From IMG/VR virus record IMGVR_UViG_2585427708_000005: a stretch of DNA of 64,000 bases; one strand, 5' to 3'. Below the pieces are notes generated by a model. That model saw only the letters and a program-made list of their open reading frames with translations. It made no database searches and had not been told where the DNA came from. This DNA comes from a virus. Taxonomy: Duplodnaviria; Heunggongvirae; Uroviricota; Caudoviricetes. The position numbers and the translations under genes were made by a program. Shown piece by piece: positions 46,659 to 54,359 of this stretch. Numbering within the stretch: position 1 is the stretch's first letter; each line of letters begins with the position of its first letter.

Positions 46659-47240
46659 ATGGCACCTATACCTTATGGGGTTTACAGCCAGGCTGACGGT
46701 GTATCGCCATTTCTGAAAGTTACTTTAACGAACTCTCAGTACCAGGTTACCGGATATATCAGCCAGGGGGCAGCAATGAACATGGCCCAGAATTGGGAAG
46801 CGCCGTTTACCGGTATGTCCATGGGGTCTGTTGCTGGTGCCTTCAGTGGTTTTGCGCAGGTTGGTACTGAAACAACGTCGGTGGCCCGTTGGAACAGCTT
46901 AATGGTTTGGGAGGGGGGAACACCGCCAACTTTCACGCTGCCAGTAACTTTCATCGCTTTGTTTGATCCATTCACGGAGGTTTCAGGAGCTATCGCCGCA
47001 TTGTCAGCGATGATTAGCCCGGAACTTAAAGATGCCAGTATTGGTGGTCGAATCCCGGAGCGTGTGACGCTAAACATTGGTCGCCAGATCAACATCATTG
47101 ATGTCGCTATCCAGGACATAAGTTTCGATCTCGATGCGCCCAGGGACAGCAATGGGCATTTCCTGAAAAACACCGTCAACCTCCAGTTGACCGGTTCTTC
47201 GATATATAACAGCTCCGATATTGTTCGGGCGTTCCAGTAA
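46659..47240 (+). CDS. Putative tail tube or tail structural protein
   Basis: 193-aa ORF directly after the sheath gene region. Confidence 0.4.
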   Translation: MAPIPYGVYSQADGVSPFLKVTLTNSQYQVTGYISQGAAMNMAQNWEAPFTGMSMGSVAGAFSGFAQVGTETTSVARWNSLMVWEGGTPPTFTLPVTFIALFDPFTEVSGAIAALSAMISPELKDASIGGRIPERVTLNIGRQINIIDVAIQDISFDLDAPRDSNGHFLKNTVNLQLTGSSIYNSSDIVRAFQ

Positions 47241-47251
47241 AAGGATTTTAT

Positions 47252-47761
47252 ATGGGGCACAATAACACTAACGGAAACCGTAAATTTATTAAGGGCCGCT
47301 ATACTGCCAACGCGGCCAAAGGCGAACGACTGGTATCTTCTGAATTCCAGCTCACTGTTGCAGGCCATGAAGATATCAGCGTACTGGTTCGCACGTCGCA
47401 AATTCCTGAAATGACCCGCGAGGATGTGGAGGACTATGGTCCGAATGGTGTGAAGTTCAACCAGCACGGTCCAATTCGAAACTCTGGGGAAATCCAGGTC
47501 CAGTGCGTGGAGACTATCGAAGGCGATATTCTTCAGTTCATTAAAGATCGCATTGCGGCGAAGGACTATGTTGATATCACGATGGCTGCTACCCCTGAAT
47601 CCAAATCTTCCGGGGTTAACGCTGTGACAAAAGCTGCTACAACAATTGAAATGTTGGACTGCAAAATCTACAGTGATGCAATCGACTTTAGTACCGAAGA
47701 TGTGACTGCCGCTGTGCGCCCGTCACTTCGTATCGTTTACAACTGGATTGAGTGGGATTAA
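47252..47761 (+). CDS. Putative tail structural protein
   Basis: 169 aa; followed by a strong terminator. Confidence 0.4.
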   Translation: MGHNNTNGNRKFIKGRYTANAAKGERLVSSEFQLTVAGHEDISVLVRTSQIPEMTREDVEDYGPNGVKFNQHGPIRNSGEIQVQCVETIEGDILQFIKDRIAAKDYVDITMAATPESKSSGVNAVTKAATTIEMLDCKIYSDAIDFSTEDVTAAVRPSLRIVYNWIEWD

Positions 47762-47782
47762 GAGTCATCCCTTGTATTTTAA

Positions 47783-47805
47783 AGCTCCTGCGGGAGCTTT
47801 TTTTG
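47783..47805 (+). terminator. Rho-independent terminator
   Basis: agctcctgcgggagct hairpin followed by a T7 run. Confidence 0.8.
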
Positions 47806-47845
47806 TGCTTAAATTATGCTGGTATAGCGAAATTTTGAGCATATT

Positions 47846-48142
47846 ATGGAAATTGATTTTTCATACTCTCCTGAAACGATAGAACGAAGATTCGAAATAA
47901 TTGGATGCAAAACTATTTCAGAGGAGCATTATTGGATTCTCTATGATGCCAATACATGGTTATGTGCCTTAGCAGAATGTCGGTCATCGTTATGTGCAGG
48001 GGAGGGAGGACTTCGACATAAGGTGCTGGCTACACTTGAAGTGAACACGTTACGATATTGGTGTGTCGAAATACTTAGGAATAACAAAGAATTACATTTA
48101 TTATTGCTGAATAAATGTGCACCTCTGCGCAGAAAAGCATAA
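47846..48142 (+). CDS. Hypothetical Cys-rich small protein in AT-rich islet
   Basis: 98-aa ORF; local AT-rich composition. Confidence 0.4.
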   Translation: MEIDFSYSPETIERRFEIIGCKTISEEHYWILYDANTWLCALAECRSSLCAGEGGLRHKVLATLEVNTLRYWCVEILRNNKELHLLLLNKCAPLRRKA

Positions 48143-48269
48143 GAAAACCCAACAGCCATACTGGAATTATCAGAAGAATATGTGCGGAAAGTTATAGCTA
48201 GCTATTGAAAAGCTAAAGTAGATCGGTTAGATTTGCCTTACTCATCTACCATGTGTAGAAAGAGCGATC

Positions 48270-48309
48270 GAACCCGATACATAGCAATATGTGTCGGGTT
48301 CAGCTTTTT
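48270..48309 (+). terminator. Rho-independent terminator between convergent genes
   Basis: gaacccgatacat...atgtgtcgggttc hairpin followed by a T6 run. Confidence 0.6.
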
Positions 48310-48788
48310 TATGTCCCAAGCGCTCTTTTTCTGCTTTGTTTGAGTGTTCTGATTTTACTGTTATAGGTTACAACATAGGCTGTTTTAAGAAGCCAATAGT
48401 CTCTACGTGCGGATAGCACAACAACGTAGTTTTCACACTCGTTCCAGATTACCCATTCTTCAGTTGGTCCTCGTCTTTCAGACCAACATGATATATCGGA
48501 ATGGTTATAATTCCTTATCATATGCGCGATCCAGCGGATCCGCTTACACCGTTCAAGATCAGGTATTCGTTCTTCTTCTATTTTTCCCTCTGATACTAAA
48601 TGCCAAAATCCGAACTCTTTCCCATCATATTCCGGTGAATAACGTAACCGAACAGGGAGACCCTTAAACGTTATATTAGAGATTAAAATGTCTTCTCTGA
48701 CAACATAATATACATCGTCTATATACTCTTGCCAACTTCCATTGAAGTACAATAAATCTGGCATTTGAAGCATCAGCGAGCCTCCCAC
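48309..48788 (-). CDS. Hypothetical protein (partner of the DUF3800-like gene)
   Basis: 159 aa; overlaps the upstream gene by 16 nt; AT-rich. Confidence 0.5.
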   Translation of the reverse strand: MGGSLMLQMPDLLYFNGSWQEYIDDVYYVVREDILISNITFKGLPVRLRYSPEYDGKEFGFWHLVSEGKIEEERIPDLERCKRIRWIAHMIRNYNHSDISCWSERRGPTEEWVIWNECENYVVVLSARRDYWLLKTAYVVTYNSKIRTLKQSRKRALGT

Positions 48789-49477
48789 ACGAAAATATTA
48801 AATTTACTTTCTGTTGGAAGAGTGCTTTTTAGTAAATCCCTGTTTGTATGTGATTTTATCCTGTTTATGACTTGGATTTTTCCCGCGTTGCTATTCATTC
48901 CTCGATGAACGTAGCCTAACGCACCAATGAAAAGATCCGTTAGCTGCAATTGTTGCACTTCATGAGATCGTATATGTTGAATTCTGTTTATCGACTCATG
49001 ATTGTAATCATAGCGATCATTGTGAAGAACTCCTCTTAATTTCTCAATTTTTTCAATGCCTAAAGTATCTTTTATATCTAGGTAGATATTGTATGTGTTG
49101 TTACTTTCTATTATGTTTTTTAAGACATAAAAAAACATCTTATAATAGAAAGTATTATGATCTTGATGGAATCGAGCATGGTCCAGTTGCTCTTTATCAG
49201 GAACAACAACACCTCTAAAGCGCAATGCTGGGTTGCTGAAGAAGTAATCTACGACATCTAAGTAAAATTCAACCTTGGACGCAGATACTTTAGTCCACTT
49301 GATTTCGAAATCAGGTTTTAGATTGTGTTTTAATTTTAATTCCTTGATGTCTCTAGCAATTTTTTTTGTGATAGTGCCAGGGCACCAAAGCGCACCCAAT
49401 ACCATGACTTTATTATGATCATTTAGTAGGTGACAGGATTCATCGCAGAATACATTAAATGTTCTTCGGTTCAACAT
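48773..49477 (-). CDS. DUF3800-like protein (N-terminal F-C-D-E-S-C-H motif, C-terminal QLQLTD motif)
   Basis: 234 aa; VFCDESCH near the N-terminus and HEVQQLQLTDLFIGAL near the C-terminus resemble the DUF3800 signature as recalled; AT-rich. Confidence 0.45.
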   Translation of the reverse strand: MLNRRTFNVFCDESCHLLNDHNKVMVLGALWCPGTITKKIARDIKELKLKHNLKPDFEIKWTKVSASKVEFYLDVVDYFFSNPALRFRGVVVPDKEQLDHARFHQDHNTFYYKMFFYVLKNIIESNNTYNIYLDIKDTLGIEKIEKLRGVLHNDRYDYNHESINRIQHIRSHEVQQLQLTDLFIGALGYVHRGMNSNAGKIQVINRIKSHTNRDLLKSTLPTESKFNIFVWEAR

Positions 49478-49645
49478 GTTAACTCCACTTATTGTTAGGT
49501 AGAATTGTCCGTTAGTTGTTTATTAATTGCAATAATGGGACGTCCAGTTTTGGCAACAGTGCCCTCTTACCAGGACGCCTATGAGTTTGCCTCATGGCAA
49601 ACTAGAGGCGTTGAAAGTATGCATGGTTATAATTAGAACAATTCA

Positions 49646-50491
49646 TTACCCTCTGAATCCCGCCGGTATACCCCATTGTTCGTTATCTTTATTTTTGGCT
49701 AAAACCGCATTAAGAGCTTCGTTTACCGTCATGCAATGCGGTAGGTTATCGAAGTTTGATATCCCGCCAATATCAGGCGAACGCTTGTTCTTCAGGTAAG
49801 CATATTTCCGCGCAGCCGCCTCTACTTTCTGCTTGAACTCATGTTTTTGAGTGCGTTTTTTGGATAACCGCAGATTGTCAGCCTTTGCTTTTGCCTCAGC
49901 GATCCATGAAGTCAATTTTTTGAGTCTGGTCGTTCCGGCACCGCCGGAAACTGATCTTTTTGTTTTTTTAACTTGTGACTTCTTATTCTTTATTGCCACG
50001 TCATCCTGACAGGGGGAGGGGGTATCATTTTGATATGGGGGTGTGGTTAAAAAATCAAATAAAGCCAATGTCTTAGCGAGAACAGCTTTAACCTTGGTTG
50101 CGGCTGAAGAGATCTTTAATTTGCTTTCAGTCAGCGCGTTTTTAGCTTGTTGTGCGAAGGCCAAAAAGGATGGTGTAAACCGGTACAGGTTAGCGCGACG
50201 TTCACGGTGATCGCCGATAACAATCTCTACAGACAGAATTCCTTTGTTTACAGCTTCACGGAATGCACGAACGACGGTTGATTGGCTATAACCAGTTTCT
50301 GCCGCGATCAGGCGGTGAGGCTTGTGAATGAAGTATTCACTGGTTGTTGCCGCGAGATTTGCACATTGCGACAGGATATGCCCGGCGCTACGGGATAGAC
50401 CGGAGTGTGTTACAAAGCAGGCCAATTCATAGCCAGAAAAAGTAAAATCGCTCATCGTTATACAGCTCAGGAAAGTGACTTTAGCCAGCAT
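49646..50491 (-). CDS. repL: Lytic replicon initiator RepL
   Basis: 281 aa; HTH region then basic C-terminus; directly downstream of kilA. Confidence 0.8.
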   Translation of the reverse strand: MLAKVTFLSCITMSDFTFSGYELACFVTHSGLSRSAGHILSQCANLAATTSEYFIHKPHRLIAAETGYSQSTVVRAFREAVNKGILSVEIVIGDHRERRANLYRFTPSFLAFAQQAKNALTESKLKISSAATKVKAVLAKTLALFDFLTTPPYQNDTPSPCQDDVAIKNKKSQVKKTKRSVSGGAGTTRLKKLTSWIAEAKAKADNLRLSKKRTQKHEFKQKVEAAARKYAYLKNKRSPDIGGISNFDNLPHCMTVNEALNAVLAKNKDNEQWGIPAGFRG

Positions 50492-50520
50492 TACAATGCT
50501 GGTGGTTCTTACTACGTCTG

Positions 50521-51321
50521 TTAGCGCGTTGCCGCGACAGGTACCAGCACACCAGCATCAAGCAATCGCTTCATCAGCCACTGCTGACCTTTGCCGGTTA
50601 TACGAGTCGTGAAAGAAATCCTGCTTCCATTGCTTGTATCGATCACGGTTTCTTTAAGGGTGAAATACCCACGGGATATGTATTCTTGTTTGGGGACGTT
50701 CCTGCGTTCACCGGTTGCGATCAGAATTCCGTTATCACGCAACCAGGTGAAGAGATAGTTTTGGCCCAGGCCGAGCACTTTGGCATAGTTGCCGATTAGA
50801 ACCCCGCTGGCGGTAGCAACGCGTTCGGCGAATTCGACTTTAGGTGCATCCATCAGCATTTTTTGCTCCAGCCGTTGCTTTTGCTCTGCCAGGTCAGCAG
50901 CCAAACGGAGAGCTTCTGGGAGGCTCTTCGGAATAGCAGGTTGTAATCTTCCGGCTCGATAGTCGATAAATGTCTGGTTTACCTTCAGCCGAAACGCGGG
51001 AGAAATCCAGCCTGCGTACTCCACTGCGAGCAATTCATGGGCAAAAGTGCCGCCGCCACGGCCTTCGAACGAAACTATGCAATTCTGCATAGTTTCTTTT
51101 TCAAGCTCTTCGATGAGCTGTTTGGCTGACAGCGTTCTTAGCCATTGAGCTGGCGCTTTATGGGCACCGAGTCCGCTCGCTCTGTGTAGAGCATTAAGGT
51201 TGTAACGGCCAGCGCGGTCGGTCGTAATTTCAACACCACAAATAACAGGCAGAGTGGTTGAAGGATCGACATTTTGATGAAGGTTTGATATATTCATATC
51301 CGCATTGAATGTTTGTTGCAT
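50521..51321 (-). CDS. kilA: KilA (KilA-N domain with Bro/antirepressor-type C-terminal domain)
   Basis: 266 aa; C-terminal half paralogous to the C-terminus of the adjacent antirepressor; operator upstream. Confidence 0.8.
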   Translation of the reverse strand: MQQTFNADMNISNLHQNVDPSTTLPVICGVEITTDRAGRYNLNALHRASGLGAHKAPAQWLRTLSAKQLIEELEKETMQNCIVSFEGRGGGTFAHELLAVEYAGWISPAFRLKVNQTFIDYRAGRLQPAIPKSLPEALRLAADLAEQKQRLEQKMLMDAPKVEFAERVATASGVLIGNYAKVLGLGQNYLFTWLRDNGILIATGERRNVPKQEYISRGYFTLKETVIDTSNGSRISFTTRITGKGQQWLMKRLLDAGVLVPVAATR

Positions 51322-51390
51322 TTTTTCTCCAAATTTGCATCAACCTTCAATCACCAGCTCGAAATGGTGATTCTTTGCACTTAGAAAACG

Positions 51391-51407
51391 AAATTTATTA
51401 GAGCAAA
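51391..51407 (-). promoter_or_regulatory. C1 operator-like site (16/17) upstream of kilA-repL
   Basis: aaatttattagagcaaa. Confidence 0.65.
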
Positions 51408-51485
51408 TTTTTCTAACTCGATCCAGATCGGGTTGGACGATCTGCTCAGAAACCTGCCAGTTTGCTGGCAGGTTTTTTTCTTTTG

Positions 51486-52529
51486 TTAACCTATTGCTAC
51501 TGGTTTTAACAAACCAGCATCAAGTAGCTTGCGAGTTAACCACTGCTGGCCTTTACCCGTTAATTGGGGCGTCAGCCGTATCTGGTAGCCATTTTCATCA
51601 TCCAGCACCACTTCTTTCACCGTGAAATACCCGGCGTTGATGTACTGTTGGCGCGGTACGTTTTTGCGCGCTCCAAAAGCCATGAGAATGCCATTCTGGC
51701 GCAACCATGAGAAAAGGGCGTTTTGCTTAAGTCCAACGACCTTTGCAAAGTTCCCGATCAGGATTCCATTAGCCACTGATACCCGGTCGGCAAAATCGAC
51801 TTTAGGGGCAGCGGCCACCAGCTGTTGTTCCAGCTGCATTTTCTGTTCTGCTAACTCGGCAGCCAGGCGTAGAGCTTCTGGTAATGTTTGGGGGATCGAT
51901 GGGGCAGGGGAGTTTGCCTGCTGCAATTCTTCCAGTTTGTCGATCAGCGAACGGCGGACCGCTTTTGACTCGCGCGCGGCGACTCGCAAGGCTTGTTTGT
52001 AGGTCATGGTGATGACCTCAAAAGAGCGCCCAGCCCTTGTGCCATGGGATTTTGCACTTTTTGTGTAAAATTCACCTTCAAGTTCATCGAGTATTTTTTC
52101 GATGAATTTATTGTTTCTAACCTCTGGTTCTCCACATAACTTGCGTGCCTCATTGACCATCTTCAACAATGTTTGGCTGTCGATTGTGTCTCCGGTGTTG
52201 GGGATGACATTCACGGCTGGTGTTGGCGTAGCTGACGTAACAGGTGCTGGTTTCTCAACATTCAAATTTTTACCGGTCACTCTATGTGCCTCCTTTCTCA
52301 TTTCTGCTGCCACCGTTGCGTAACGTAGACGTCCTTGTTCAATCAAATAATCCCTGATCTCGGCTATCAGTAGCCTGTTGATCACTGCCTTATCTGTTCG
52401 GGTATAAAAACGCCTGGTTATCATGAAATAGTTGGCAATTGCGCCGGGGATCTCCCGCGTCGGCATACAGGCAGTATGCAGGGCGATTGCTTCGGCTATG
52501 TCATTACGGGTGACGAGAGGTTTTTTCAT
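51486..52529 (-). CDS. ant: Antirepressor (Ant-like)
   Basis: 347 aa; C-terminal domain shared with KilA; preceded by a coupled small ORF. Confidence 0.7.
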   Translation of the reverse strand: MKKPLVTRNDIAEAIALHTACMPTREIPGAIANYFMITRRFYTRTDKAVINRLLIAEIRDYLIEQGRLRYATVAAEMRKEAHRVTGKNLNVEKPAPVTSATPTPAVNVIPNTGDTIDSQTLLKMVNEARKLCGEPEVRNNKFIEKILDELEGEFYTKSAKSHGTRAGRSFEVITMTYKQALRVAARESKAVRRSLIDKLEELQQANSPAPSIPQTLPEALRLAAELAEQKMQLEQQLVAAAPKVDFADRVSVANGILIGNFAKVVGLKQNALFSWLRQNGILMAFGARKNVPRQQYINAGYFTVKEVVLDDENGYQIRLTPQLTGKGQQWLTRKLLDAGLLKPVAIG

Positions 52530-52747: not shown

Positions 52748-53060
52748 AGTTACGGCCTCACTAACAGGTTTAACAACCTGCTACCCGCTGTCAAACAGGT
52801 GGCAGGACGTGACAGGGTTGACAGACTGGCGTTAGTGAAACCAGCAGGCCGAAGCCTCCCCATCACGCCCCACCATAATTCGGGCGTAACGCGGTTTACG
52901 GACACAAAAATACCGCAATATCGGAAATCTGCGGTTGTCCGCACTAACATTCAGGCTGTCAAACCCGGTCGCAGAATTTGCTACGACGGCGGAACTATAA
53001 GCCTGAACGATTAAAAGGTCAATATGATGCGAAAAGATAGCATTCGTGACTTAAAAATAC

Positions 53061-53077
53061 AAATTTATTAGAGCATT
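53061..53077 (-). promoter_or_regulatory. C1 operator-like site (16/17) at the immI promoter region
   Basis: aaatttattagagcatt upstream of the leftward icd-ant leader. Confidence 0.6.
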
Positions 53078-53146
53078 GTTTGTTTAATAAATGCACAATT
53101 GGATCTAATAACCTCTTTTTTTTAAAGGCGAAAATATGTACCCTAA

Positions 53147-53821
53147 ATGAGTTATAAGGCAGGTGAGGTTATAATGAGAAAACTATTACTACCGTTATTA
53201 TTTATGGCTGGGACTGTTAATGCAGCATCAAGCGTAAAGGAGATTTGTACCGATTATACGAAATACCTTGGGCACGTTTACGGCTTTGCTGTCAGTGAAG
53301 ACGAATCCATGCGCAAGAAGTTACTGTCAGATATGAAGCGCCTTAAACTTTCTGAAGCGATGGTGCAGCAGGAACTGTATAAAGTCTCAACCAACGCAAA
53401 TGCTAAATACCAATATTCTCGCCTATTAAACCCCGATGCAAATGAGATCAATCGAAGCACTTTCGATTATATGGTAAAGGCATGCGAAACCGCTCCTGAT
53501 TTTGCTATCCCTAGCTGGGGTGTGCTGGTGGCGAGCAATGCCGTTAATAAAGAAGATGTTGGAAGAAATGGCATTGACTCAATCAGAAATGCCCCAGGAA
53601 TGCGCCATCAAAACGTGCAGGGTACGCTTGAAGAGCGGGCCAGGGGGCCGGGTACAAACTCCCCAATGGGAAACCTCTCACCAGAGGAATTGCAAGAGTA
53701 TAACCAACGGATGGAGCAGTATGAGAAAGCGGCACGCGAACAAATGGAACAACAAAAGAACGGCTCACTTAATACCTTCCAGCAAGGTTTAAAAGCGCTT
53801 AATTTACCCTATGAATGGTAA
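53147..53821 (+). CDS. Secreted hypothetical protein (signal peptide) carrying a motif shared with Sit
   Basis: 224 aa; signal peptide MRKLLLPLLFMAGTVNA; GMRHQNVQGTLEERARGPGT matches a Sit internal motif. Confidence 0.55.
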   Translation: MSYKAGEVIMRKLLLPLLFMAGTVNAASSVKEICTDYTKYLGHVYGFAVSEDESMRKKLLSDMKRLKLSEAMVQQELYKVSTNANAKYQYSRLLNPDANEINRSTFDYMVKACETAPDFAIPSWGVLVASNAVNKEDVGRNGIDSIRNAPGMRHQNVQGTLEERARGPGTNSPMGNLSPEELQEYNQRMEQYEKAAREQMEQQKNGSLNTFQQGLKALNLPYEW

Positions 53822-53882
53822 ATATATTATGGATAACCAATTAAAATATTGATAATCGTTAATATCCAAAGGAGATAAATTA

Positions 53883-54359
53883 ATGCGCATCAAACGATTT
53901 TTTCTAATTCTTGCTTTGCTTACTCCATTTTCATCAATGGCAAATGTAAGCAAATGGTCAACCGGCGAGACTCATGGTGTTCGTTCTTATGCTGTTTCCA
54001 GCAAAGATAATTATACGCTTACATTTGAGTGCGATGTTGGATTTAATAATACGGATCCCAATCAAGTAGGAACACGACTACTCACTCTCATGAAAACAGA
54101 ACCTGGCGGTGAGTCATTTGATGCTAAAAAAGAACAAATAACGCTGAAAGTTGGTGATGATGAATATCCTATCAGTTCTATCGGTTCCTCTGTTGGTGAT
54201 AGTTACTGGTATGGTTTTTGGTCAGATACCCCTGATATGGAAGTTAAAACATTCGATGCATACGTAGACGGAAAAAAAATCGCAACATTTACGCTACGTA
54301 AGGCCGCAGAGCTTTTCAACGCGGCACCTGAAGATGGCTGCCTGAAGCGCGCAAAATGA
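53883..54359 (+). CDS. Secreted hypothetical protein (signal peptide)
   Basis: 158 aa; N-terminal signal MRIKRFFLILALLTPFSSMA; strong RBS aaggagat. Confidence 0.55.
   Translation: MRIKRFFLILALLTPFSSMANVSKWSTGETHGVRSYAVSSKDNYTLTFECDVGFNNTDPNQVGTRLLTLMKTEPGGESFDAKKEQITLKVGDDEYPISSIGSSVGDSYWYGFWSDTPDMEVKTFDAYVDGKKIATFTLRKAAELFNAAPEDGCLKRAK

What the first reader, a model, noticed from the sequence alone, without database searches (positions are those of the whole stretch)
47846..49477. AT-rich islet with a DUF3800-like two-gene cassette beside the lytic replicon
Composition drops to visibly AT-rich between the tail-gene terminator and repL. The islet holds a Cys-rich small gene and an overlapping leftward pair, one with DUF3800-like motifs, bounded by a terminator. 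Foreign-looking composition and overlap suggest an acquired accessory module, possibly defence-related; function unknown.
Basis: partly seen in the sequence, partly recalled or inferred. Interest (0 to 1): 0.5.

Follow-up and report, generated by a model that had tools for sequence, protein, structure and literature searches.

The report
P1 rlfAB cassette plus hidden sRNA
The AT-rich islet is phage P1's long-annotated pmgF-rlfB-rlfA interval, but its rlfAB pair belongs to a widely mobile candidate defence module that always carries an unannotated small RNA gene, and lone copies of that RNA sit in phage tRNA arrays.

Summary
Window 47805-49631 has GC 0.375, the lowest 1.8-kb stretch in the window. 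It contains pmgF (+) and the overlapping rlfB/rlfA pair (-), next to repL. These are the reference P1 genes (96.5% nt identity; RlfA 233/234 aa), so the genes are not new.

The "replication-linked" name has no support. The interval is a swappable cargo slot: only 98 of 680 P1-like plasmids carry it.

RlfA is DUF3800 with an RNase HII-like predicted fold. RlfA and RlfB match the unvalidated PADLOC candidate system PDC-M04. In 79 of 80 species the two genes are adjacent, usually with overlapping stop and start. In 35 of 79 loci they lie beside type I restriction-modification genes.

New here: the "terminator" bounding the islet is the 3' half of a conserved ~70-nt small RNA gene (about 48240-48310, +) with its own promoter, convergent on rlfB. 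It occurs once in every one of 85 rlfAB loci across phyla, has strong covariation, and matches no Rfam family. Fifty-four distinct orphan copies occur in viral contigs, often inside tRNA arrays.

Best reading: an acquired, RNA-restrained, toxin-antitoxin-like exclusion module. This function is inferred, not shown.

The parts
47781..47807 (+). bplB intrinsic terminator; the left edge of the swappable cargo slot lies at 47803/47804
   Evidence: The terminator scan finds it. Homology to P1-like plasmids carrying other cargo stops at 47803/4, right after the T-run.
47846..48142 (+). pmgF (98 aa, 6 Cys). A P1-lineage gene of unknown function, not part of the mobile rlfAB cassette.
   Evidence: 90/98 aa identical to P1 PmgF. 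It matches phrog_7349 only, with no Pfam, PADLOC or NCBIfam hit. Its N-terminal 65 aa are 42% identical to a 198-aa protein at the same position in sibling plasmids, and the Cys residues are not conserved there. No PmgF match was found in the 80 other rlfAB loci.
48205..48233 (+). sigma-70-type promoter of the small RNA (TTGAAA, 17-nt spacer, TAGATT)
   Evidence: The promoter scan finds it. Seven enterobacterial copies, this window and P1 among them, have a -35/-10 pair at the same distance from the RNA start even though the spacer sequences differ. TANNNT lies at -17..-9 in 60/85 loci against 18/85 in a control window. The Bacteroidota loci have TAnnTTTG instead.
48240..48310 (+). Conserved ~70-nt small RNA gene, convergent with rlfB. 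5' hairpin 48241-48264 (CUCAUCUACCAUGUGUAGAAAGAG); terminator hairpin 48270-48301; U-tract 48305-48310, overlapping the rlfB stop codon.
   Evidence: The RNAalifold consensus has 13/19 pairs with compensatory changes. 97% of cells are paired against 83% in shuffles, 0/500 shuffles reaching the observed value. The covariance model R1 finds one hit in the window and in each of 85 rlfAB loci (86 hits in 1.32 Mb; one locus has a weak second hit), always antisense to rlfB and beside its 3' end. On 82 distinct sequences 96.6% of cells are paired and 15/19 pairs are compensatory. Strand test: 96.6% paired on this strand against 87.8% on the other, with 148 G.U cells. Single-sequence MFE is -29.7 kcal/mol, z -6.3. 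No Rfam family matches.
48309..48773 (-). rlfB (154 aa), the small partner protein; PADLOC PDC-M04B
48773..49477 (-). rlfA (234 aa), DUF3800 protein with a type-2 RNase H-like fold; PADLOC PDC-M04A
49478..49645 (-). rlfA upstream region. It holds the P1-annotated weak promoter PrlfA (TTGCAA 49532-49527, GACAAT 49509-49504) and the C1 operator Orlf (49642-49626). The right edge of the cargo slot lies at 49631/49632.
   Evidence: P1 annotation. The operator here reads ATTGTTCTAATTATAAC, against ATTGCTCTAATTATAAC in P1. In plasmids with other cargo the homology breaks inside the operator (ATTGCTCTAAT|...). The 11 other C1-operator-like sites in the window all keep the C at position 5.

Best explanation
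The islet is two independent units in a cargo slot of a P1-like phage-plasmid.

Unit 1 is pmgF, a lineage-specific gene of unknown function.

Unit 2 is a horizontally mobile 1.25-kb cassette of three parts:
- rlfA, a DUF3800 protein with an RNase HII-like fold and an intact acidic motif set.
- rlfB, a translationally coupled small partner.
- A convergent, independently transcribed ~70-nt structured sRNA whose terminator abuts the rlfB stop codon.

This cassette is the PADLOC candidate system PDC-M04.

Most likely it is a toxin-antitoxin-like exclusion or abortive-infection module rather than a replication function. In this model the abundant, probably short-lived sRNA restrains the RlfA-RlfB nuclease pair or its mRNA. 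When transcription of the element collapses, through phage takeover or loss of the plasmid, or when an invader perturbs the RNA, the proteins act on RNA or RNA:DNA hybrids and stop growth of the cell or the invader.

Shown: identity with the P1 genes; the three-part architecture and its conservation; the RNA structure, strand and promoter; mobility; the genomic company it keeps.

Inferred: that the proteins form a complex; that the RNA restrains them; that the output is defence or addiction; what the target is.
For: - Same genes as P1, with no evidence for a replication role.
- Cargo slot: only 98 of 680 P1-like plasmids carry the islet. The others carry hokD plus an 81-aa ORF, a 198-aa PmgF-like gene, Ail/Lom or IS421, with junctions at the bplB terminator and inside the C1 operator. 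PMC9603915 and PMC6906374 already list this region as variable and low in GC.
- PADLOC PDC-M04A/B hits.
- RlfA fold and motifs.
- Pair conservation: RlfA lies directly upstream of RlfB in 79/80 species loci. Stop and start overlap in 68/78.
- Company: 35/79 loci have type I R-M genes within 10 kb, and 16 have the order hsdM/S-rlfAB-hsdR (examples). Elsewhere the pair sits next to integrases of prophages, ICEs and islands or as a moron in a lambdoid prophage.
- sRNA present in all 85 rlfAB loci, with covariation, strand asymmetry and a promoter. Nucleotide homology between distant cassettes starts exactly at the RNA's 5' end.
- The 5' hairpin sequence is conserved across phyla. A purely cis-antisense RNA would not need this, which points to protein recognition.
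- Orphan RNA copies in phages without RlfAB, 21/21 co-oriented with nearby tRNAs. This fits a trans-acting RNA that phages could carry as a decoy.
- The main alternative cargo at the same P1 slot is hok, another toxin module controlled by an antisense RNA.
- Precedents for sRNA-restrained defence enzymes: ToxIN and AvcID, as summarised in PMC12409362.
Against: - No experiment shows defence, toxicity or RNA-protein binding. PDC-M04 is only a candidate, and no paper in the library mentions it.
- In P1 the cassette lies downstream of the C1-repressed kilA-repL operon, with a C1 operator in front and only a weak predicted promoter of its own. P1vir transcriptomics groups rlfA/B with early lytic genes. 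It may therefore be expressed mainly in lytic growth, which is atypical for a prophage defence gene.
- Both single-gene knock-outs exist in nature. rlfB has a nonsense codon at invariant W57 in Methylomonas and a poly-A frameshift in an E. coli ICE. rlfA has frameshifts or an insertion in three genomes, some of which may be sequencing errors. Neither protein is therefore obviously a constitutive toxin.
- Neighbours outside R-M operons are mixed, and include housekeeping genes.
- The orphan RNAs were found with a pattern taken from the RNA itself. Their link to RlfAB function is an inference.
Confidence: 0.5

Rival explanations
1. Replication-linked function, the original P1 naming. RlfA would act as an RNase H-like enzyme that processes the transcript or R-loop made by transcription through oriL, with RlfB as a cofactor, to prime or tune lytic replication.
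For: - Position directly downstream of repL, on the same strand, behind a C1 operator.
- RNase HII-like fold.
- Co-induction with repL early in P1vir infection.
Against: - P1-derived vectors carry the repL region without rlfA.
- CRISPRi knock-down has no effect on plaque formation.
- 582 of 680 P1-like plasmids lack most or all of the islet yet keep repL.
- The same cassette sits in type I R-M operons, ICEs and lambdoid prophages that have no repL.
- This reading does not explain the sRNA.
Confidence: 0.07
2. Plasmid-addiction module only. The cassette is a post-segregational-killing toxin-antitoxin unit that stabilises the P1 plasmid and other mobile elements, with no role against phages.
For: - The sRNA-plus-protein architecture.
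- A hok-type module occupies the same slot in sibling plasmids.
- 123 of 128 E. coli occurrences are on plasmids.
Against: - Frequent chromosomal location inside type I R-M operons and defence-rich neighbourhoods.
- Orphan RNA copies in lytic-phage-like tRNA arrays are hard to explain by addiction.
- The two roles are not mutually exclusive.
Confidence: 0.15
3. Two-protein system with an ordinary terminator. The conserved downstream element would be a bidirectional terminator or insulator carried along with the cassette, not a functional RNA partner.
For: - The 3' half is a canonical GC hairpin plus T-run.
- It abuts the rlfB stop codon.
- The best sub-threshold Rfam hits are generic terminator-like models.
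Against: - The 5' hairpin lies outside the terminator, is nearly invariant in sequence from Enterobacterales to Saccharibacteria, and still shows compensatory changes.
- A promoter is positioned upstream in most loci, with a phylum-appropriate motif in Bacteroidota.
- The same two-hairpin RNA occurs alone in phage tRNA arrays.
Confidence: 0.08
4. Phage offensive or counter-defence tool. P1 would express RlfAB early in lytic growth to destroy a host immune nucleic acid or host RNAs, with the sRNA protecting the phage's own molecules. A candidate target is an RNA:DNA hybrid such as retron msDNA.
For: - Likely lytic-phase expression in P1.
- RNase H-like fold.
- DUF3800 domains are the effector partner of type VII retrons, so the family does meet RNA-DNA hybrids (PMC7736814).
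Against: - Most family members are chromosomal and embedded in host R-M operons or islands, not in lytic phages.
- In the phage collection only P1/P7-like records and one weak Bifidobacterium phage hit carry RlfB.
Confidence: 0.08

Closest known systems
Phage P1 rlfA/rlfB/pmgF (P7 rapA/rapB), Lobocka et al. 2004 annotation
   Same: Same genes at the same locus. 96.5% nt identity; RlfA 233/234, RlfB 150/154 and PmgF 90/98 aa identical.
   Different: The reference annotation has no RNA gene between pmgF and rlfB, and its functional note ("possibly associated with lytic replication") rests on position only. The C1 operator here carries a C-to-T change.
PADLOC candidate system PDC-M04 (PADLOC-DB v2.0.0)
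   Same: RlfA and RlfB match the A and B profiles near full length, and the genes are adjacent and co-oriented.
   Different: PDC-M04 is defined as two proteins and is unvalidated. The RNA component found here is not part of that definition. No paper in the searched library mentions PDC-M04.
DUF3800-associated structured RNAs (DUF3800-I to -XI, drum, skipping-rope; Weinberg et al. 2017, PMC5737381)
   Same: A structured non-coding RNA with a Rho-independent terminator, tightly linked to a DUF3800 gene, possibly on the opposite strand.
   Different: No Rfam 15 model reaches even E = 10 on this element. Rfam 15 holds at least DUF3800-I and DUF3800-IX. The scans are. The paper's supplementary motif list is not held, so identity with a motif absent from Rfam cannot be excluded.
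RNA-antitoxin defence modules: type III TA ToxIN and AvcID
   Same: An enzyme gene with an adjacent, separately made small RNA. A proposed trigger by loss of a labile RNA on transcription shut-off. Phages can escape by carrying the RNA (general knowledge for ToxIN; AvcID as summarised).
   Different: No tandem RNA repeats. The RNA is convergent rather than upstream. There are two proteins. No sequence relation to ToxN/AbiQ or AvcD. Inhibition by the RNA is untested.
Type I TA loci with convergent 3'-overlapping antisense RNA, and hok/sok, which occupies the same P1 slot
   Same: A convergent sRNA whose 3' end overlaps the 3' end of the protein operon. hokD/mokW replaces rlfAB in sibling plasmids.
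   Different: The proteins are not small hydrophobic peptides. The conserved RNA sequence goes beyond what antisense pairing needs. No pairing signal with the rlfA or rlfB translation-initiation regions (z about 0).
PrrC/EcoprrI and other genes embedded in type I R-M operons (e.g. TgvAB of V. cholerae VPI-2)
   Same: Homologues sit between hsdS and hsdR in 16 of 79 loci, the classic position of R-M-linked back-up defence genes.
   Different: No sequence similarity to PrrC or GmrSD-type proteins. The P1 copy is not next to a type I R-M system.
Type 2 RNase H (RNase HII/H2A, RNase HIII)
   Different: 7-12% identity and no sequence-level hit to any solved structure. Substrate unknown. The family is DUF3800, not RNase_HII.

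Membership tests
Pfam DUF3800 (PF12686) | Profile match above the gathering score | tested here: met
   54.1 bits against a cut-off of 21; residues 8-189 cover profile positions 1-148 of 149.
Pfam DUF3800 (PF12686) | N-terminal DE motif and C-terminal QxxD motif, as described in PMC7736814 | tested here: met
   D12-E13 and Q178-x-x-D181 are invariant in 38 homologues.
PADLOC PDC-M04 (candidate defence system) | Both the A and B profiles match adjacent co-oriented genes | tested here: met
   PDC-M04A at 1.2e-95 and PDC-M04B at 9e-52, for genes that overlap by 1 nt.
PADLOC PDC-M04 (candidate defence system) | Protects cells against phage | not testable with these tools
   No experimental report found. 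Only guilt by association.
Type 2 RNase H | RNase H fold closest to RNase HII/H2A | tested here: met
Type 2 RNase H | DEDD catalytic carboxylates in register with the RNase HII active site, and cleavage of RNA:DNA hybrids | tested here: inconclusive
   Conserved D12, E13, D134/D137 and D181 lie on the expected secondary-structure elements. No residue-level superposition or activity test was possible.
RelE/ParE-colicin D (BECR-fold) RNase toxins, for RlfB | Significant fold match | tested here: inconclusive
Type III toxin-antitoxin (ToxIN-like) | Antitoxin RNA made of tandem repeats upstream of the toxin on the same strand | tested here: not met
   A single-copy RNA, convergent with and downstream of rlfB.
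Type I toxin-antitoxin | Small hydrophobic toxin peptide | tested here: not met
   RlfA has 234 aa and RlfB 154 aa, and both models are globular alpha/beta folds.
Type I toxin-antitoxin | Antisense RNA overlapping the toxin mRNA | tested here: met
   The RNA's terminator abuts or overlaps the rlfB stop codon (mode -2 nt, 33/80 loci) on the opposite strand. The extent of mRNA read-through is unknown.
Rfam DUF3800-I to -XI, drum, skipping-rope RNAs | Covariance-model match | tested here: not met
   No such family at E <= 10 on window 48180-48340 or 47000-51000. None at gathering score or at the E-value limits used (1 and 0.1) in 16 other loci scanned.
P1 lytic replicon (kilA-repL-oriL) | Needed for oriL-driven replication or lytic growth | tested here: not met
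   From records and the literature only. P1-derived vectors carry repL without rlfA. CRISPRi scores the genes non-essential. Absent from most P1-like plasmids.
New RNA class (rlfAB-associated sRNA) | Conserved structure supported by covariation, a fixed genomic partner, and a defined strand | tested here: met
   15/19 pairs compensatory and 96.6% of cells paired on 82 distinct sequences. Hits beside rlfB in all 85 loci. Strand asymmetry 96.6% against 87.8%.

The most novel reading that the evidence does not exclude
RlfA-RlfB plus the sRNA is a three-component, RNA-gated abortive-infection system acting on tRNA or other RNA. It would be the first functional assignment for DUF3800 and its puzzling RNA partners. 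Phages would fight it by carrying orphan copies of the gating RNA inside their tRNA arrays as decoys. P1 would use its copy during lytic growth or as a plasmid-addiction and exclusion device.
Probability: 0.25. Interest if true: 0.85.

Novelty: new variant of a known kind. Interest (0 to 1): 0.62.

Why it matters
P1 is one of the most studied phages. Even so, this interval carries a name ("replication-linked function") that the evidence does not support, and it contains an unannotated RNA gene.

DUF3800 is a large family with no demonstrated function. It recurs beside retrons, Cas12a2/a3 and Cas13 kinase loci, and beside many unrelated structured RNAs.

The compact P1/E. coli version is 1.25 kb: two proteins and one 70-nt RNA. 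It gives a directly testable model for what DUF3800 proteins and their RNAs do.

If the orphan RNA copies in phage tRNA arrays are decoys, that would add a new class of RNA-based counter-defence and a new reason why phages carry tRNA arrays.

On the practical side, many RefSeq records omit rlfB or call it "oxidoreductase" or "replication protein", and none annotate the RNA.

Tried and rejected
- Replication role. Rejected on vector content, CRISPRi data and population data.
- pmgF as part of the cassette. Rejected: it is absent from all other rlfAB loci and is allelic with a 198-aa gene.
- pmgF as a Cys-motif or zinc protein. The Cys residues are not conserved in the 198-aa relative. Not pursued.
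- Known Rfam RNA families for the element. No match.
- sRNA pairing with the rlfA or rlfB ribosome-binding regions, sok-like. Duplex energies were no better than shuffles.
- Classical protein toxin-antitoxin pair. Natural knock-outs of either gene exist, so neither is an obligate antidote.
- Sequence-level relatives of RlfB: Pfam on 32 members, a PDB profile search, and a 1.8-billion-protein profile search. These returned only same-size uncharacterised proteins, with no informative fusions.
- Divergent DUF3800 genes next to the orphan viral RNAs. Not seen among 150 neighbours.
- Literature search for PDC-M04, for the RNA sequence, and for a DUF3800 function. Nothing found.
- The Weinberg 2017 supplement is not held.
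Full report
**1. What is at the coordinates**

The window is a P1-like phage-plasmid. A 3.2-kb stretch spanning the islet is 100% identical to E. coli plasmid NZ_CP027590.1.

The interval named in the finding lies between the tail gene bplB (47252-47761, +) and the lytic replicon genes repL (49646-50491, -) and kilA. It holds three genes:
- pmgF, 47846-48142 (+), 98 aa.
- rlfB, 48309-48773 (-), 154 aa.
- rlfA, 48773-49477 (-), 234 aa.

The whole 2-kb query is 96.5% identical to reference P1 and 96.4% to P7, where the pair is called rapA/rapB. Against P1, RlfA is identical at 233/234 residues, RlfB at 150/154 and PmgF at 90/98.

GC falls to 0.32-0.42 here against about 0.50 on both sides. The segment 47805-49631 has GC 0.375 and is the lowest stretch of its length in the window (mean 0.473, sd 0.024).

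The rlfA stop and the rlfB start share one base (TGATG), with a GGGAGG ribosome-binding site upstream. Terminator-like hairpins lie after bplB (47781-47800) and between pmgF and rlfB (48270-48301).

**2. The genes are known; their name is not supported**

P1's annotation says "possibly associated with lytic replication", on positional grounds. It places a C1 operator (Orlf) and a predicted promoter upstream of rlfA.

Three lines of evidence count against a replication role:
- The same record shows that P1-derived cloning vectors carry the repL region ending just short of rlfA.
- A genome-wide CRISPRi study scores rlfA, rlfB and pmgF as non-essential (PMC10695390).
- Of 680 P1-like plasmids that match the bplB/repL flanks, only 98 carry the islet.

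The other plasmids hold different cargo in the slot: hokD/mokW plus an 81-aa ORF, a 198-aa gene plus the 81-aa ORF, the 198-aa gene plus an Ail/Lom outer-membrane protein, or IS421 insertions.

Homology to these plasmids stops at 47803/4, immediately after the bplB terminator T-run. It resumes at 49632, inside the C1 operator (ATTGCTCTAAT|...).

Two published comparisons already list rlfA-rlfB-pmgF as a variable, low-GC region of P1-like elements (PMC6906374 and PMC9603915). The "acquired accessory" reading is therefore sound and partly known.

**3. pmgF is a separate unit**

PmgF has no Pfam, PADLOC or NCBIfam match. Its first 65 residues are 42% identical to the N-terminus of the 198-aa protein that fills the same position in sibling plasmids, and its cysteines are not conserved there. 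It never accompanies rlfAB elsewhere.

**4. The rlfAB pair**

RlfA:
- It matches Pfam DUF3800 at 54.1 bits against a cut-off of 21.
- Its family is large (more than 5000 hits) and unusually conserved, with 52% identity to a Bacteroidota member.
- D12-E13, E58/K60/W61, D134/K136/D137 and Q178xxD181 are invariant.
- This agrees with published remarks on DUF3800.
- No solved structure is detectable by sequence.

RlfB:
- It has no relative in Pfam, NCBIfam or the PDB by sequence.
- Its family comprises 1767 clusters at 50% identity, almost all free-standing proteins of 150-190 aa.
- Foldseek finds nothing significant, although HigB1 and colicin D again rank high.
- I treat this resemblance as a lead only.

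Both proteins match the PADLOC candidate system PDC-M04 near full length, at 1.2e-95 and 9e-52. That candidate has no published validation in the searched library.

**5. The pair elsewhere**

A profile scan of one genome per species found RlfB in 411 species across many phyla, including Saccharibacteria and Gracilibacteria.

In the 80 loci kept:
- RlfA lies immediately upstream on the same strand in 79. The exception is cut by a contig end.
- Stop and start overlap in 68 of 78: by 4 nt in 32, by 1 nt in 17, and by 8-28 nt in 19. This implies coupled translation.
- Type I restriction-modification genes lie within 10 kb in 35 of 79 loci. Sixteen have the order hsdM/S-rlfAB-hsdR. Methylomonas and Algoriphagus are examples, the latter next to a reverse transcriptase and a pAgo.
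- Other copies sit directly after integrases of an E. coli ICE, a Burkholderia island and an Enterobacter prophage, or as a reverse-oriented insert in a Serratia lambdoid prophage.
- Neighbours of the remaining loci are mixed. They include MADS, type IIG R-M, TIR, PDC-M05, TOTE and Dpd components, and also housekeeping genes.

The P1-type cassette is in 121 of 5426 complete E. coli genomes, almost always on plasmids.

Natural knock-outs of either gene exist:
- rlfB has a nonsense codon at invariant W57 in Methylomonas, seen in three independent assemblies.
- rlfB has a poly-A frameshift in an E. coli ICE.
- rlfA has frameshifts or an insertion in three other genomes, some of which may be sequencing errors.

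Neither protein therefore behaves as an indispensable antidote to the other.

**6. A third, RNA, component**

The DNA just downstream of rlfB is much better conserved than the coding DNA: about 85% against 64-73% identity.

Read on the strand opposite to rlfAB, which is the + strand of the window, it has three parts:
- A 5' hairpin, CUCAUCUACCAUGUGUAGAAAGAG (48241-48264).
- A short linker.
- A GC-rich hairpin followed by a U-tract (48270-48310).

A sigma-70 promoter (TTGAAA, 17-nt spacer, TAGATT; 48205-48233) ends 7 nt before the conserved start. Seven enterobacterial copies, including this window and P1, have a -35/-10 pair at the same distance although their spacers differ.

Across 85 loci, TANNNT lies at -17..-9 in 60, against 18 in a control window. 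The two Bacteroidota loci have TAnnTTTG, which I recognise from general knowledge as the Bacteroidota -7 promoter motif.

Structure:
- RNAalifold on 35 distinct sequences predicts the two hairpins, with compensatory changes in 13 of 19 pairs.
- 97% of cells pair, against 83% in shuffles and 36-52% in slid controls.

A covariance model built from that alignment (R1) was searched against the window plus 85 loci, 1.32 Mb on both strands. It finds one strong hit in the window and one in every locus. One locus has a weak second hit, and there are no hits anywhere else. The hit is always antisense to rlfB and next to its 3' end.

On the 82 distinct sequences, 96.6% of cells pair and 15 of 19 pairs show compensatory change.

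The strand is fixed by 148 G.U cells: 96.6% of cells pair on this strand against 87.8% on the other.

The base of the terminator stem lies within about 19 nt of the rlfB stop codon in nearly all loci, most often overlapping it by 2 nt.

Nucleotide homology between the P1 cassette and distant cassettes begins exactly at the RNA's 5' end and stops about 10 nt upstream of the rlfA ATG. The conserved unit is therefore rlfA-rlfB-sRNA.

No Rfam 15 family matches the element in the window or in 16 other loci scanned. Rfam 15 holds at least DUF3800-I and DUF3800-IX. No paper in the library contains its sequence.

Weinberg et al. reported that DUF3800 genes associate with eleven unrelated structured RNAs of unknown function, several with terminators and on either strand. 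This element fits that pattern but is not one of the curated models. I could not read that paper's supplement.

**7. Orphan copies in phages**

The 24-nt pattern of the 5' hairpin has 95 exact matches in IMG/VR viral contigs.

- Nineteen are P1-like, with rlfB about 40 nt away.
- The other 76 (54 distinct) keep the two-hairpin RNA, scoring 27-58 bits with the covariance model in the 43 orphan loci searched.
- These lack RlfA and RlfB.
- They have no conserved convergent ORF and no DUF3800 enrichment among 150 neighbouring proteins.
- Twenty-one of the 54 have a tRNA gene within 500 nt, in all 21 cases on the same strand as the RNA. Several sit inside arrays of up to 37 tRNAs, one beside ROOL and a Y-RNA-like element.
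- None of the eight distinct rlfAB-linked viral copies has a tRNA nearby.

Because these copies were found with a pattern taken from the RNA, the count is biased towards exact 5' hairpins. The true family may be larger.

**8. Interpretation**

The secure part is this. The islet is P1's pmgF plus a mobile three-part cassette (a DUF3800 RNase-H-like protein, a coupled partner protein, and a convergent sRNA). That cassette travels between prophages, ICEs, plasmids and type I R-M operons.

The mechanism is inferred. Five features favour an sRNA that acts on the proteins, or as their recognised partner, in the manner of RNA-antitoxin defence modules such as ToxIN or AvcID:
- The RNA's sequence-level conservation.
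- Its own promoter.
- Its universal linkage to rlfAB.
- The existence of free-standing phage copies.
- The replacement of the cassette by hok-type modules in sibling plasmids.

The R-M-embedded position recalls PrrC-type back-up nucleases. A sok-like action on the ribosome-binding sites is not supported.

Three points weigh against a standard prophage-defence reading for P1 itself:
- The cassette sits behind the C1-repressed kilA-repL operon.
- It has a C1 operator in front.
- It has only a weak predicted promoter of its own, and it is induced with early lytic genes in P1vir.

In this window the operator carries a C-to-T change at a position that is C in all 11 other operator-like sites. This may loosen repression.

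I put about 0.5 on a TA-like exclusion or abortive-infection function. The replication, terminator-only and counter-defence readings get below 0.1 each, and a purely plasmid-addiction role about 0.15.

**9. Novelty and verdict**

The genes, their DUF3800 label, the variability of the region and the PADLOC candidate status are all already on record.

What appears new:
- The obligatory sRNA component, with its structure, strand and promoter.
- Its orphan copies in phage tRNA arrays.
- The quantified coupling of rlfA and rlfB.
- The quantified embedding in R-M operons.

I class the finding as a new variant of a known kind: an RNA-associated toxin-antitoxin or abortive-infection-like module built on a DUF3800 nuclease. 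It is of moderate to high interest because it offers a tractable E. coli/P1 model for an uncharacterised, widespread protein-RNA partnership.

Noticed in passing
window 49626-49642 (-): The C1 operator Orlf reads ATTGTTCTAATTATAAC here, against ATTGCTCTAATTATAAC in P1. The changed base is C in all 11 other C1-operator-like sites of the window. C1 control of rlfAB may be weaker in this element.
   Followed up: partly
window 47804-49631; loci L012-L016: The bplB-repL interval is a cargo hotspot. Sibling P1-like plasmids carry hokD/mokW plus an 81-aa ORF, a 198-aa PmgF-like gene, Ail/Lom or IS421 instead. The junctions lie at the bplB terminator and in the middle of the C1 operator.
   Followed up: yes
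viral loci L102-L196, e.g. L167:8450-8520, L143:9692-9755, L158:867-933: Orphan copies of the rlfAB-type sRNA occur without RlfA or RlfB in viral contigs. 21 of 54 distinct copies are within 500 nt of a tRNA gene, always co-oriented, and some sit inside large tRNA arrays. In L143 the RNA lies near ROOL and a sub-threshold Y-RNA-like match.
   Followed up: partly
L006:8699-9172, L004/L005:8699-9180, L026, L073, L095: There are natural knock-outs. rlfB has a stop at invariant W57 in Methylomonas and a poly-A frameshift in an E. coli ICE. rlfA has frameshifts in L026 and L095 and an insertion in L073. Some may be sequencing errors.
   Followed up: partly
RefSeq/GenBank records under hits H22-H27, H67, H69, H71-H79: Annotation is inconsistent. 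rlfB is often not called at all, or is named "oxidoreductase" or "replication protein", with no visible basis.
   Followed up: no
GQ141189.1 (Bifidobacterium phage Bbif-1) 35668-36135: An unannotated RlfB-like ORF (28.6% identity over 93% of RlfB) is the only non-P1-like hit in the phage collection. I did not check it for RlfA or the sRNA.
   Followed up: no
window 51250-51550, 52900-53350, 53650-53950: There are further short low-GC patches (0.35-0.39) to the right of kilA/ant. They were not examined.
   Followed up: no
L006:3316-3696, L039:10859-11250, L017:6361-6432, L035:3823-6024: Several chromosomal rlfAB loci lie in islands next to tmRNA or tRNA genes, which are typical integration sites.
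   Followed up: no
window 47846-48142: PmgF is the least conserved of the three proteins relative to P1: 8 changes in 98 aa, against 1 in 234 for RlfA.
   Followed up: no
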